From the NCBI GenBank assembly GCA_030599585.1, contig JAUVNS010000011.1:32001-96000 (forward strand): DNA of 64,000 nucleotides. The letters run 5' to 3'. The DNA comes from Promethearchaeota archaeon (GTDB lineage: Archaea > Asgardarchaeota > Lokiarchaeia > Sigyniarchaeales > SOKP01). This document shows positions 971-43,701 of this stretch, in pieces. The notes under the pieces are model-generated. The model was not told the origin of the DNA. It made no database searches and was given only the letters and a program-made list of their open reading frames with translations. The translations under genes were made by a program, and so were the position numbers. Every line of letters starts with the position of its first letter. Positions within the stretch are counted from its first letter, which is position 1.

Positions 971-2980
971 ATGGGTAGCATGAAAGAAGAGATCAAAAAA
1001 GAAATTATAAGTAGATTTGAACAAGAAATTGAAAAGTTTAATCTTGGTGAGCCCCATAAATCTGTCTCACAGATACATGAAGAGTTTAAAGAGCATTTTA
1101 GTGATAAAACAATCCAAAACATTGGTAAAACCTACTTTCCTGAAGATTATAAAATAATATATAGTAAACCTAAAGTATCACAAGAAGTGTATAGGGATAT
1201 AAAAGTAAGAATTGCTATTGAAATTGATAGATTTTATTCAGGCTATTCAGCAACTCCTCTTGAACAGATTTATAAAGAATTTAAAAATGTTATAAATTCT
1301 GTAGATACAATTTATTACATTGGGAAGAAAGAATTTCTTGATGAATATAATGAAATTTGGGCAAGACAACCTCTTCCAGATGAAGTCATGAGAGAAATAA
1401 TAAATATTTTAAAAAAAGAGATTTTAAACTATAAGAATGGAATAAAACCGAAATCAATAAGTCGAATTCACAAGGACTTTCAAGAAAAAGTAAAATCTTC
1501 TTCTGTTATTGCAAAGATAGCTAGAGGGAACTTTCCAAAATACTACTATGAAATATGGACTAAAGTTAAGATAACACCTGAAATTAAAGATAAAGCAATA
1601 AAGAGAATAAAAAGAGAAATAGATTTTTATAAAAGTGGTCATGAACCCTTGTCAATACGAGATATATGGAAAGAGGACTTTCAGCCTTATATGTCAGAGG
1701 GTCAGCTTGGTGAGATTGGAAGAAAAGCCTACCCGGAAGATTATGAACTTATTTGGGGTGCTTATAGAATACCTGTCGAGGTTAAAGAATATTTGATTAA
1801 AACTATAAATAATGAGATTTCTAAATATGATTCAGGAAAAACACCAGATTCCATACGCCAAATTCAACAGAAATTTGGTAAATGGGTTAAATCAAAAGAT
1901 CATATAATTTCCATAGCAAAAAATGTGAACTCTGAAAAATATGACGAAATATGGAGTATCCCTCGTATTCCAGAACATATTAAAATTCAGGTAATAGAAG
2001 TAATAAGAAATGAAATTGCTAAATATAAAGACGGCTTAGAACCAAGAAATATTAAAGAAATTTGGGAAGATAATTTTATTCAAGTTATTAAAACTAGAGA
2101 TACGATTAGTGATATAGCAAAAAAAGCATTTCCAAATGAATATGATCTTATTTGGGGGAAAGAAATCCCTGATGATAAAAGAATAGGAATTATTCAAGAT
2201 ATCCTTGATTATGGTAATCCTAATGTTAGAACAATAGGACAAATTGCACATAAATATGGAGTAAGCAATACTACAGTTATTCGCATTTCAGTAAACGAAG
2301 TGAAGGGTTGCTACACCTCTTTTAGTCACGAAGAGCGATTTCCACAAGATTTTTTCGCAGCATTAGGAACTATTTTACATAATATAATTAAATATTTAAT
2401 CACAGCTCATTTTTGGAGGAAAAATTCAAAAGCTTACTCAGAGATAATTGTAGATTTCAACACCCGTGTTTTAATTGATAATTTTTTCCTTAATGTCAAA
2501 TCTCATAACTATTTATATAAAGTATTAGAATGTAATAGATATTTAGTAAAAGAAATGCATTTAGATATCGATGAAACAAGAAATATAAATGGTTTTATGT
2601 TTGATTACACTAATGATGTTTCAGAAAAAAATATAAGAAAAAAGGGTAAAAAATATCAAAAAAAAGACAAGTTACTATTCATTGTAGGGACGAGATGGCC
2701 TAGGAAATATAAAAAGAGAATTATTGAAACAAGCTTTAAAAACATAAGGATAATCAAGCATGACTTGTTTGCTGAATTTATTGGGATAGATGGTAAAATA
2801 TTAGATATATTTAATTATGCTATTGGACTAAATTATATATTTGATCTAAATGCTTTAAAAGAAACTTTAATGGGTATTGAGAATAATTTTCTAAAGAAAT
2901 TTGGTAGAGATTTATTTAAAAATGATGACCTTAAAAAAGATCTTGAAAAAAAAGGCATAAGATATGATGATTTTTTTTGA
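971..2980 (+). CDS. Tandem HTH-like repeat protein with putative C-terminal PD-(D/E)xK nuclease-like domain
   Basis: Six 65-66-aa repeats (aa 5-399), canonical HTH TIGQIAHKYGVSNTTVIRI, then ALGTILH / SE / RVLID / FDYT / KKY motifs. Confidence 0.6.
   Translation: MGSMKEEIKKEIISRFEQEIEKFNLGEPHKSVSQIHEEFKEHFSDKTIQNIGKTYFPEDYKIIYSKPKVSQEVYRDIKVRIAIEIDRFYSGYSATPLEQIYKEFKNVINSVDTIYYIGKKEFLDEYNEIWARQPLPDEVMREIINILKKEILNYKNGIKPKSISRIHKDFQEKVKSSSVIAKIARGNFPKYYYEIWTKVKITPEIKDKAIKRIKREIDFYKSGHEPLSIRDIWKEDFQPYMSEGQLGEIGRKAYPEDYELIWGAYRIPVEVKEYLIKTINNEISKYDSGKTPDSIRQIQQKFGKWVKSKDHIISIAKNVNSEKYDEIWSIPRIPEHIKIQVIEVIRNEIAKYKDGLEPRNIKEIWEDNFIQVIKTRDTISDIAKKAFPNEYDLIWGKEIPDDKRIGIIQDILDYGNPNVRTIGQIAHKYGVSNTTVIRISVNEVKGCYTSFSHEERFPQDFFAALGTILHNIIKYLITAHFWRKNSKAYSEIIVDFNTRVLIDNFFLNVKSHNYLYKVLECNRYLVKEMHLDIDETRNINGFMFDYTNDVSEKNIRKKGKKYQKKDKLLFIVGTRWPRKYKKRIIETSFKNIRIIKHDLFAEFIGIDGKILDIFNYAIGLNYIFDLNALKETLMGIENNFLKKFGRDLFKNDDLKKDLEKKGIRYDDFF
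983..2167 (+). repeat. Six diverged in-frame repeats of about 198 nt (66 aa)
   Basis: Consensus PxEIKxxII..I..EI.xY..G..P.SI..I...F......S..TI..I(A/G)K..FP..Y..IW recurs with 66-aa period. Confidence 0.9.
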
Positions 2981-5312: not shown

Positions 5313-5521
5313 TATAATTTCAACAATTTCTCTTCATTTTTTACTGTAAGAATCCTTGCGATTTGTTTTCTCAGTATTTTCGCTTTCGCAGGATTATCTG
5401 CAATACCGCCACCAGTTTGTTGGCTGTATAACATCATCAATTCTTCTCTTAGGGTTATTAAACTTCTTTCTCTTTCTCTTTCATCCATTTCCCGGACTTT
5501 ATTTGCGGTTATTATATCCAT
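5312..5521 (-). CDS. rpl29: 50S ribosomal protein uL29
   Basis: VREM...LREEL...NPAKAKILRKQIARILT. Confidence 0.95.
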   Translation of the reverse strand: MDIITANKVREMDERERERSLITLREELMMLYSQQTGGGIADNPAKAKILRKQIARILTVKNEEKLLKL

Positions 5522-5558
5522 TTTTTAGTCGCTCTCCATATTTTTATTTCATATTATA

Positions 5559-6380
5559 TTATTCGTCACTTTTTTCATCTGTATCTACTTCTGGCTCCAG
5601 AGAAATTTCAGAAATTTCTTCCTCTTCAACTTCTTCGAACAGGTCTTTTTCTTCTTCGGTTGGTTCTCTTGTTTCTTCACTTATCTCGAGGTCTTTTTCC
5701 ACTTTTGTTTTACGTAACTCGGCTTCTATTTTTGCTTGAACTTTAGCTAATTCTTCGTGGTTTACTACGATTGTATCCCCCATTCTTATATCAGCGTGCA
5801 TGATTTTCACAATTATCCCTAAAGTTCCTGACTTCATAACACACTGAGCTACTCCTTTATCTACTCCTTCTTGAGCAGGTTGACCTGATTTTTTCATTGT
5901 ACCGGCCCTAAATACGGTCGTCCGGGCTCTCTGTGAAGTAACCTTACCCGAAACGATAATTTCTGTACCTCTAGCTCCAGAATCCATGATTTTACGTAAT
6001 ATATAATAACCTGCTCTTCTGTAATGTCTTCCTCGATCTAGCGAATACGCTAAACGTTCCGCCATAATCTGTGCGTTCAAATCCGGGTTTTCTACCTCCT
6101 CGACTTCGATTTGGGGCAATTAGCTTAAGGGAAAAATTTTCCCCTAATTTTCTAGCTCAAATCGTTCTTGAAGGATATCCGTGATCTCTTGAATACGCTT
6201 TCCGCCTTTTCCTATTACAAGGCCTGGGCGGGACGTACGAAGAGTGATTCTAACGCCAAGCGGGGTTTTCTGTATATCAACGCCAGCAAACCCAGCCCGA
6301 ACCAGTTCAGATCTCAGGTATTCGTTTATTTGCATTAATTTGATTCCTTGTTCAATAAAATGTTTTGCTAATGGGCTCAT
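5559..6380 (-). CDS. rps3: 30S ribosomal protein uS3, interrupted; predicted exons 6149-6380 and 5559-6118, 263 aa after splicing
   Basis: Upstream ORF has KH motif RPGLVIGKGGKRI; downstream ORF has NPDLNAQIMA and GARGTEIIVSGK; both are in one frame with a 30-nt insert carrying TAG and TAA. Confidence 0.93.
6119..6148 (-). other. Candidate BHB (endonuclease-spliced) mRNA intron, 30 nt, in rps3
   Basis: mRNA: CGAUUUGAGC UAGA AA^A UUAGGGGAAA AUU UUUCCCUUAA GCUA AU^U GCCCCAAAUCG; exon-exon helix, central helix with 3 of 4 pairs, two 3-nt bulges, 10-bp inner hairpin. Confidence 0.8.
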
Positions 6381-6424
6381 ATTTACTACTTTTTTTTATA
6401 ATTTTAATTTTCTTTAATTTAATT

Positions 6425-6904
6425 TTAACTTGGAAATTCGTACACTACAATTTCCACATGACTTAAATGCCCAAACTTCGGAGAAGATCGACCGTGAGCT
6501 CGTTGAATATAGCGCTTTATTATTCTTCCTCGATGTGTTGCTGCGTGAATAATTCTACACTGTTCAGTGTCTAATCCTTTAAACTCAGCATTTGATTCAA
6601 CGGAAGTGAGAATTTCATAGATTCTAGCAGCGGTTTTTTGGGGGAATCTACCTGCATACCAGTTATACTGTTTCAAGTCTTTTCTGTGAGCTTGTTTCTT
6701 TTTATGTCTTCTAAATGGTACGGATTGCTTGAGTTGAATAACTTTCTCTAGATACCTTTTGGCTTGCTCTAGCTTCATACCTTTAATTACAGCACAAACT
6801 TCTCTTGCAGGTTTTGGTTTTATTCGTAAATCTCTACCCGAAGCTTTAGCCAACCTGTCTGCGTCATATTTTTGCTCTACGAAAGAATAACCCCAGTTAG
6901 GCAT
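6425..6904 (-). CDS. rpl22: 50S ribosomal protein uL22
   Basis: WGYS, VPFRRH, GRFPQKTA, RAHGRSSP, HVEIV. Confidence 0.97.
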   Translation of the reverse strand: MPNWGYSFVEQKYDADRLAKASGRDLRIKPKPAREVCAVIKGMKLEQAKRYLEKVIQLKQSVPFRRHKKKQAHRKDLKQYNWYAGRFPQKTAARIYEILTSVESNAEFKGLDTEQCRIIHAATHRGRIIKRYIQRAHGRSSPKFGHLSHVEIVVYEFPS

Positions 6905-6931
6905 TTTATTTCATCTCTTATATTATTGTAA

Positions 6932-7465
6932 TTATTTTAATGGAACATACTTACTTGAACGTGTGGCTCCAATTCCTGGCGACCCATGCTGAACATGTCT
7001 TCTAGTTTGTGAGAATTCTCCTAGATAATGACCAATCATTTCAGGTTTTACTTCTACTATTTCGTAGGTTTTCCCGTTATAGACGCCTATTTGCAAACCA
7101 ACCATTTCTGGGAAGATTAACATATCTCTAACATGCGTCCGGGTAAGAATATCCTTTCCTCTTTTCTTAGCTCTATACGCCCTTCTTAACCTTTCAAGAA
7201 GTTTTTTTTGTCTGGGAGGAAGTCCTCTTCTTAACGATCTTCGCGCTCTCGCGGGTAGTAGTCGGACGAACTCGTCCATATTCATCTTCTTTAATTCCTC
7301 TAAGGTGTGGCCTCTATAATGAAATTTGAGGCGATCTCTTTCTTTTTTTAAGTCTAATTCTTTATCGTTTGTTTCTTCATCAGTTTCTTCTGAAGGTTTT
7401 TCAGTAGTTTCATCCGGTGTCATTTCTTTTTGTTCTTCATTGTCCCGTTCTTCATTTGGAGCCAT
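6932..7465 (-). CDS. rps19: 30S ribosomal protein uS19 with acidic N-terminal extension
   Basis: [48 protein letters not shown]; GGTGG upstream of the ATG. Confidence 0.97.
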
Positions 7466-43599: not shown

Positions 43600-43701
43600 T
43601 AGCCCGGCACGGAATTTCGATTATCGAAATAACTCGATAATATTCGAACCGTGGTCACGGGGTTCAAGGCCCCAGATGCTTGGCCACTACACCACCGGGC
43701 T
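43600..43701 (-). tRNA. tRNA-Gln(UUG) with 29-nt intron at 59/60; CCA not encoded
   Basis: Acceptor AGCCCGG/CCGGGCT+A (A1-U72), anticodon arm TGGGG CCTTGAA CCCCG, T arm CACGG TTCGAA^T CCGTG; 73 nt mature. Confidence 0.95.
43614..43642 (-). other. tRNA intron (canonical BHB) in the T loop
   Basis: CACGG UUCG AA^U AUUAUCGA GUUAUU UCGAUAAU CGAA AU^U CCGUG: 4-bp central helix, two 3-nt bulges, 8-bp inner stem. Confidence 0.95.

What the first reader, a model, noticed from the sequence alone, without database searches (positions are those of the whole stretch)
6107..6164. Candidate bulge-helix-bulge mRNA intron in the ribosomal protein uS3 gene
Seen: rps3 is broken by a 30-nt in-frame insert with TAG and TAA. 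On the mRNA, exon sequence CGAUUUG (6164-6158) pairs perfectly with CAAAUCG (6113-6107), plus a GC/GC pair of bases. Next come a central helix UAGA/GCUA (3 Watson-Crick pairs, one A.G), bulges AAA and AUU, and a 10-bp inner hairpin UUAGGGGAAA-AUU-UUUCCCUUAA. Cutting after the second base of each bulge removes exactly 30 nt (6119-6148), deletes both stops and gives ERFELE-M-PQIEVEEV, a 263-aa uS3. Established: archaeal EndA cuts BHB motifs and RtcB ligates; the well-known archaeal mRNA case is cbf5 in crenarchaea. Inference: this Asgard archaeon splices a ribosomal-protein mRNA, tying uS3 supply to tRNA-splicing capacity, loosely parallel to spliceosome-independent HAC1/XBP1 splicing. I do not know a report for rps3 but cannot check the literature.
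Basis: partly seen in the sequence, partly recalled or inferred. Interest (0 to 1): 0.95.

Follow-up and report, generated by a model that had tools for sequence, protein, structure and literature searches.

The report
tRNA-type intron splits Asgard rps3 gene
The only gene for the essential ribosomal protein uS3 in this Asgard archaeon is broken by a 30-base insert shaped like an archaeal tRNA intron, so its messenger RNA very probably has to be cut and rejoined by the tRNA-splicing enzymes, which the papers I could search document for only one archaeal protein gene (cbf5).

Summary
Observation confirmed at every coordinate. The single rps3 has a 30-nt insert (6119-6148, minus strand) with TAG and TAA; the DNA is also in an independent study's contigs. 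The bulge-helix-bulge (BHB) cut restores E-M-P, the commonest reading in intronless congeners, giving 263 aa. Nine genomes in two genera carry divergent 30-nt inserts at this codon; 8 of 9 intron-stem pairs covary. Relatives have BHB inserts at two further rps3 sites. This genome also has BHB inserts in uL11 and elf1, ~30-nt non-canonical tRNA introns, a two-subunit EndA with the broad-specificity loop, and RtcB. Best reading (0.9): a relaxed-BHB mRNA intron removed by EndA/RtcB. Splicing itself is not shown: the one joined RNA contig came from an 86%-identical relative. The intron is patchy (9 of 130 family genomes; one clade rejected), which argues against a conserved regulatory switch and for repeated gain or loss. 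I found no paper on such introns beyond crenarchaeal cbf5. This scan noted the same intron class before on other Lokiarchaeia DNA, including a two-intron rps3.

The parts
6149..6380 (-). rps3 (uS3) exon 1: 77 codons plus the A of Met78; most of the KH domain
   Evidence: Pfam KH_2 positions 2-62 of 78
6119..6148 (-). 30-nt BHB-type intron, phase 1 in codon 78, with in-frame TAG and TAA
   Evidence: present in DNA contigs of runs X2 and X3
5559..6118 (-). rps3 exon 2: end of KH domain, S3 C-terminal domain, acidic tail, stop
   Evidence: Pfam Ribosomal_S3_C 1-83 of 83
6158..6164 (-). outer exon-exon helix, 5' arm
   Evidence: 97% of cells paired in the exon helix of 11 sequences
6155..6156 (-). 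exon helix h, 5' GC (pairs with 6116-6117)
   Evidence: invariant in all 11 intron-bearing sequences
6151..6154 (-). central helix H, exon strand UAGA
   Evidence: second pair switches AU to GC together with the intron strand
6148..6150 (-). 5' bulge AAA; predicted cut between 6149 and 6148
   Evidence: invariant AAA; cut position inferred from the EndA rule (PMC2738675)
6125..6147 (-). intron hairpin h' (10 bp, 3-nt loop)
   Evidence: 8 of 9 pairs show two-sided changes across relatives
6121..6124 (-). central helix H, intron strand GCUA
6118..6120 (-). 3' bulge AUU; predicted cut between 6119 and 6118
6116..6117 (-). exon helix h, 3' GC
   Evidence: invariant
6107..6113 (-). outer exon-exon helix, 3' arm

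Best explanation
A short BHB intron in the rps3 mRNA. The transcript folds exon-exon helix, central 4-bp helix with two 3-nt bulges, and intron hairpin. The host's two-subunit splicing endonuclease EndA cuts after the second base of each bulge, and RtcB joins the exons, giving A|UG (Met78) and a 263-aa uS3. Unspliced mRNA stops at codon 79. Shown here: the DNA insert, the conserved and covarying fold, the restored ancestral codon, one gene copy with mostly synonymous change, and the enzyme genes. Inferred from established EndA/RtcB chemistry: cleavage, ligation and any circular intron. It is one of several such mini-introns in this genome and family, gained or lost repeatedly.
For: One rps3 in the genome. 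Intronless congeners mostly read GAA ATG CCN CAR, i.e. E-M-P-Q. Nine genomes of two genera have a 30-nt insert at this codon; metagenome contigs add three further sequence types. 95% of cells paired, 33 two-sided changes, 0/500 shuffles as high, slid registers 30-57% (also 66). Second site at Lys58 in six genomes, five frame-breaking (31 nt), central helix 4/4 in five; third site after Phe8 with 4/4 helix in G014. uL11 (28 nt, 4/4 helix) and elf1 (30 nt, 3/4 helix) inserts in this genome restore congeners' sequences. EndA catalytic subunit whose loop Lys aligns with residue 44 of PDB chain 3p1z_B, plus a second subunit and RtcB; K44 and the loop confer relaxed-motif cleavage (PMC6379350, PMC5829648). 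29-30-nt non-canonical tRNA introns in this genome. Against G004: 31 synonymous vs 2 non-synonymous codon differences in exon 1, 25 vs 1 in the first 127 codons of exon 2. Insert present in DNA contigs of two studies.
Against: No spliced transcript from an intron-bearing strain was observed. The central helix is imperfect: A.G at the fourth pair in 10 of 11 sequences and U.U at the first pair in 6 of 11, only 64% of cells paired. The BHB conformer is 2.8 kcal/mol above the predicted minimum. The covariation shuffle test ignores relatedness. No in vitro cleavage test.
Confidence: 0.9

Rival explanations
1. The RNA is spliced, but by another cut register or another nuclease acting on the hairpin.
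For: Cuts shifted by -3 to +2 are also stop-free and give ELP, EKP or ENP. The central helix is weak. The uppS insert in this genome fits a BHB poorly.
Against: Exact 4+3 spacing at three rps3 sites and in uL11 and elf1; exon and intron strands of the central helix covary; the closest relatives have Met.
Confidence: 0.04
2. Ribosomal bypassing: the ribosome hops over the hairpin without RNA splicing.
For: A stop codon followed by a stable hairpin resembles T4 gene 60 bypassing (own knowledge); the insert is 10 codons long.
Against: No matching take-off and landing codon in the needed frame (codon list). Bypassing does not explain the conserved exon-exon helix, the exon/intron covariation, the 28-, 29- and 31-nt inserts elsewhere, or the same design in tRNA genes.
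Confidence: 0.03
3. Split gene: two separately translated uS3 fragments (78 aa and 186 aa from TTG/ATG) assemble in the ribosome.
For: The last intron base plus TG always gives an in-frame TTG or ATG; the break lies near the domain boundary.
Against: No Shine-Dalgarno-like motif directly upstream. In six genomes a second insert in the KH GxxG loop leaves a middle segment with a stop two codons upstream and no start codon. The break removes the end of the KH domain (profile stops at 62 of 78).
Confidence: 0.02
4. Assembly artefact, or a dead gene carrying a small inserted element.
For: The genome is a metagenome bin with 8.9% contamination; most relatives lack the insert.
Against: Contigs with 0 and 2 differences span the insert in two studies; same-site inserts in eight other genomes; no second copy found; mostly synonymous change in both exons.
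Confidence: 0.01

Closest known systems
cbf5 pre-mRNA intron of Desulfurococcales and Sulfolobales (Watanabe 2002; Yoshinari 2006; Yokobori 2009, PMC2738675)
   Same: [quoted passage not shown]
   Different: Different gene (uS3) and phylum (Asgard); up to three introns in one gene; several genes per genome; very patchy among close species, whereas the cbf5 intron is ancestral to two orders. cbf5 itself is uninterrupted here. Splicing is shown for cbf5, only inferred here.
Non-canonical tRNA introns of TACK and Asgard archaea (PMC5829648; bioRxiv 10.64898/2026.10.13.758758)
   Same: Same motif, same 29-31-nt size class as tRNA introns in this genome; repeated gains at sites that allow a BHB.
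   Different: Host is an mRNA. The parts of the preprint I read treat tRNA genes of Freyr-, Jordi- and Atabeyarchaeaceae; the word mRNA does not occur in its main text.
HAC1/XBP1 unconventional splicing in eukaryotes
   Same: Spliceosome-independent removal of a short stem-loop-defined intron; RtcB-type ligation in metazoa (own knowledge; PMC11747266 abstract).
   Different: Cut by IRE1, which is not an EndA homologue (own knowledge); stress-regulated. No regulation is shown here.

Membership tests
Archaeal BHB intron (EndA substrate) | Two 3-nt bulges on opposite strands | tested here: met
   AAA and AUU; 3-nt spacing kept in 11 sequences
Archaeal BHB intron (EndA substrate) | Strict 4-bp central helix | tested here: not met
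   3 pairs plus A.G here; 2-3 pairs in relatives. It is a relaxed motif. The Lys58 and Phe8 sites and uL11 mostly have 4/4
Archaeal BHB intron, relaxed type (as in cbf5) | Central helix mostly paired, flanked by exon helix h and intron helix h' | tested here: met
   h 97% and h' 97% paired; middle two central pairs 11/11, one covarying
Archaeal BHB intron, relaxed type (as in cbf5) | Cut after the second bulge base restores the homologous uninterrupted sequence | tested here: met
   E-M-P-Q as in closest intronless congeners, in all nine genomes
Archaeal BHB intron, relaxed type (as in cbf5) | Host encodes a hetero-oligomeric EndA with the specificity loop, and a ligase | tested here: met
   Two EndA subunits, loop Lys aligned to K44, Tyr/His/Lys of the active site present in one subunit, RtcB intact; subunit assembly itself not tested
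Archaeal BHB intron, relaxed type (as in cbf5) | Spliced RNA observed in vivo | tested here: inconclusive
   RNA run X17 has a joined contig, but from an 86%-identical relative; like forms exist in DNA runs
Archaeal BHB intron, relaxed type (as in cbf5) | Cleavage by EndA in vitro | not testable with these tools
   needs an enzyme assay
Group I, group II or spliceosomal intron | Catalytic core of over 100 nt, or GU-AG ends | tested here: not met
   30 nt, ends AU...AU
Translational bypass element (T4 gene 60 type) | Matched take-off and landing codons in the resuming frame | tested here: not met
   codon list

The most novel reading that the evidence does not exclude
One family of Lokiarchaeia (Promethearchaeia) has a mobile population of ~30-nt BHB mini-introns shared between tRNA genes and many essential protein genes, repeatedly gained at exon sites that can form the motif. 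EndA/RtcB would then act as a general mRNA-splicing system in an Asgard lineage, and many 'split' or frameshifted genes in these genomes would be intact.
Probability: 0.6. Interest if true: 0.92.

Novelty: new variant of a known kind. Interest (0 to 1): 0.82.

Why it matters
Archaeal mRNA splicing is documented, in what I could search, for cbf5 alone. Here it would be required to make a universal ribosomal protein in an Asgard archaeon, with up to three introns in one gene and several interrupted genes per genome. That gives a natural system for studying intron gain and loss in coding sequence without a spliceosome, among the closest prokaryotic relatives of eukaryotes. It also matters practically: uS3 and uL11 are standard marker genes, and gene callers will truncate or split them in these genomes. 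The test is cheap: a 58-nt RNA plus recombinant EndA, or junction reads.

Tried and rejected
(1) RNA evidence: four runs laid on 5500-6950. X17 (metatranscriptome) has a contig joined at 6149/6118, but it differs at 15 of 107 bases, resembles intronless G004, and joined forms also occur in DNA runs X2 and X3; not counted. X17 holds a near-identical uL22 piece but nothing of this strain across the junction. X18 does not cover it. (2) The metagenome pattern scan that allowed both forms gave 8 insert-bearing and 1 insert-free contig (82% exon identity); no spliced form of this strain. (3) De novo BHB-plus-ORF scans of the genome rank rps3 at or near the top but return as many candidates as slid controls, and the early versions missed uL11, elf1 and uppS; they give no count of introns. 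(4) radA paralogs on C12 and C49 break at model position 265, but my spliced alignment did not resolve a BHB. (5) The uppS 30-nt insert is real but fits a BHB poorly in the registers tried. (6) G120, G133 and G092 have assembly gaps over the site and cannot be scored. (7) Nine literature searches found no report of mRNA introns in Asgard archaea or in rps3; the library lacks most subscription papers. (8) No homing endonuclease or donor sequence was identified; not searched exhaustively.

Full report
Observation. On the minus strand rps3 lies in the ribosomal protein cluster between uL22 and uL29 and is called as two ORFs, 78 aa (6380-6144) and 186 aa (6119-5559). The first matches the KH domain up to profile position 62 of 78, the second the whole S3 C-terminal domain. 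The 58-nt region folds better than 199 of 200 shuffles (z = -3.3). Removing 6119-6148 gives 792 nt, 263 aa. ViennaRNA leaves the central helix open; the BHB conformer is 2.8 kcal/mol above the minimum.

The DNA is real and the gene is alive. It is the only rps3 found in the genome. DNA contigs span the insert without gaps in run X2 (5998-6342, no differences; possibly the source study) and in run X3 from another study (6060-6282, two differences). Against the closest congener G004, exon 1 shows 31 synonymous and 2 non-synonymous codon differences, and the first 127 codons of exon 2 show 25 and 1.

Relatives fix the register. Most intronless congeners read E-M-P-Q with GAA ATG CCN CAR; some have Leu, distant genera Asn. 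Of the stop-free 30-nt cuts, only the BHB register gives Met. In 130 family genomes with an rps3 match, nine in two genera carry a 30-nt insert at this codon. None of the 25 matched genomes of other families in the class showed a break in the rows listed. Record titles name the relatives as Promethearchaeota/Promethearchaeia, i.e. Lokiarchaeia. Metagenome contigs add three more sequence types.

The structure is conserved while the sequence is not. In nine sequences 95% of cells pair, with 33 two-sided changes; no shuffle of 500 reaches this and slid registers pair at 30-57%. Eight of nine intron-stem pairs covary, and the second central pair switches AU to GC between exon and intron. The shuffle ignores relatedness, so it is not a probability. 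The central helix is relaxed: A.G at the fourth pair in 10 of 11 sequences (A-U in one), U.U at the first pair in 6 of 11. Four mostly synonymous exon positions of the fold are fixed in 9 of 9 carriers but occur together in only 2 of 41 intronless genes.

It is part of a system. Six of the nine genomes have a second insert in Lys58 of the KH GxxG loop; five are 31 nt and break the frame, five have a 4/4 central helix, and the segment between the two inserts has no start codon. G014 has a third, in-frame insert after Phe8 with a 4/4 helix. G146 has a 29-nt insert in uL14. In this genome uL11 carries a 28-nt frame-breaking insert with a 4/4 helix whose removal gives GPTGINIKDVV as in 11 intact congeners. 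elf1 carries a 30-nt BHB insert, and uppS a 30-nt insert that fits a BHB poorly. cbf5, uS10, uS8, gyrB and cdhA are uninterrupted. tRNA-Glu, tRNA-Lys and tRNA-Gln have 29-30-nt non-canonical introns with 4/4 helices.

The machinery is present. Two EndA subunits and one intact RtcB are encoded. One subunit keeps the active-site Tyr, His and Lys and has the loop GSPLGISKP, whose Lys aligns with residue 44 of chain 3p1z_B (that this is Aeropyrum pernix EndA is my own knowledge). The other lacks the His. K44 in this loop confers cleavage of relaxed motifs (PMC6379350), and Asgard archaea were reported to have this enzyme type and loop (PMC5829648).

Mechanism. Most likely (0.9) EndA cuts after the second base of each bulge and RtcB joins the exons. 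Cleavage and ligation are inferred, not observed. The RNA test was inconclusive: the only joined RNA contig is 86% identical and probably comes from an intronless relative. Bypassing lacks matched codons; a split protein fails on the start-less middle segment; artefact and pseudogene are contradicted above.

History. On an exon-only rps3 tree of 53 rows the intron needs 7 changes, at least 4 forced by well-supported branches, and one clade of carriers is rejected (AU p = 2e-73). I sampled all carriers but only part of the intronless genomes, and one gene gives limited resolution. Repeated gain at a permissive site, ancestral presence with many exact losses, and recombination between species all remain open. 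The patchiness argues against a conserved regulatory role for this intron.

Comparison and novelty. The closest known case is the crenarchaeal cbf5 intron; a 2009 paper states that splicing was confirmed for no other archaeal protein gene, though others had been predicted (PMC2738675). A 2026 preprint on Asgard tRNA introns does not mention mRNA. Nine searches found no report for rps3 or for Asgard mRNAs; the library is incomplete. This scan has noted the same class in other Lokiarchaeia genomes and elsewhere in this one; those notes were used as leads only. Verdict: a real feature, a new variant of a known kind, interest 0.82.

Noticed in passing
window 43614-43642 (minus): tRNA-Gln with a 29-nt T-loop intron, 4/4 central helix, same size class as the rps3 intron
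   Followed up: yes
L097 (G000:C28:32730-32757, minus): uL11 broken by a 28-nt BHB insert; many congeners are broken near the same model position (25-27) and others match only from position 17
   Followed up: partly
G000:C32:69609-69854 (minus): elf1 has a 30-nt BHB insert with TAA in the first CxxC; four other sampled congeners show the same break
   Followed up: partly
G000:C41:13440-14150 (minus): uppS has a 30-nt stop-containing hairpin insert in the DGNRR motif, shared by six other sampled congeners; flanked by ACGG direct repeats and a poor BHB fit
   Followed up: partly
G000:C12:52397-53170 and C49:49433-50206: two radA paralogs break at model position 265, as in several congeners; insert structure not resolved
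   Followed up: partly
G000:C32 near 105878 (minus): 33-nt insert with 4/4 central helix and strong hairpin in an HPHP-motif gene; no homology check made
   Followed up: partly
L066 (G014 rps3): three inserts in one rps3; the first is in frame and stop-free, so unspliced RNA would add 10 residues rather than stop there
   Followed up: yes
L058 (G146 rpl14): 29-nt frame-breaking insert in uL14 with a 4/4 central helix by inspection
   Followed up: partly
window 971-2980 (plus): the ribosomal protein cluster ends after eS4 (3036) and is followed by a convergent 669-aa repetitive ORF with no Pfam match; in relatives the cluster continues, and uS8 lies on another contig here
   Followed up: no
window 5559-5740 and 7326-7465 (minus): long acidic extensions on the uS3 C-terminus and the uS19 N-terminus
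   Followed up: no
G000:C50 near 76930 (minus): 30-nt AT-rich hairpin ending like the rps3 introns, near an ATG; probably intergenic, unexplained
   Followed up: partly
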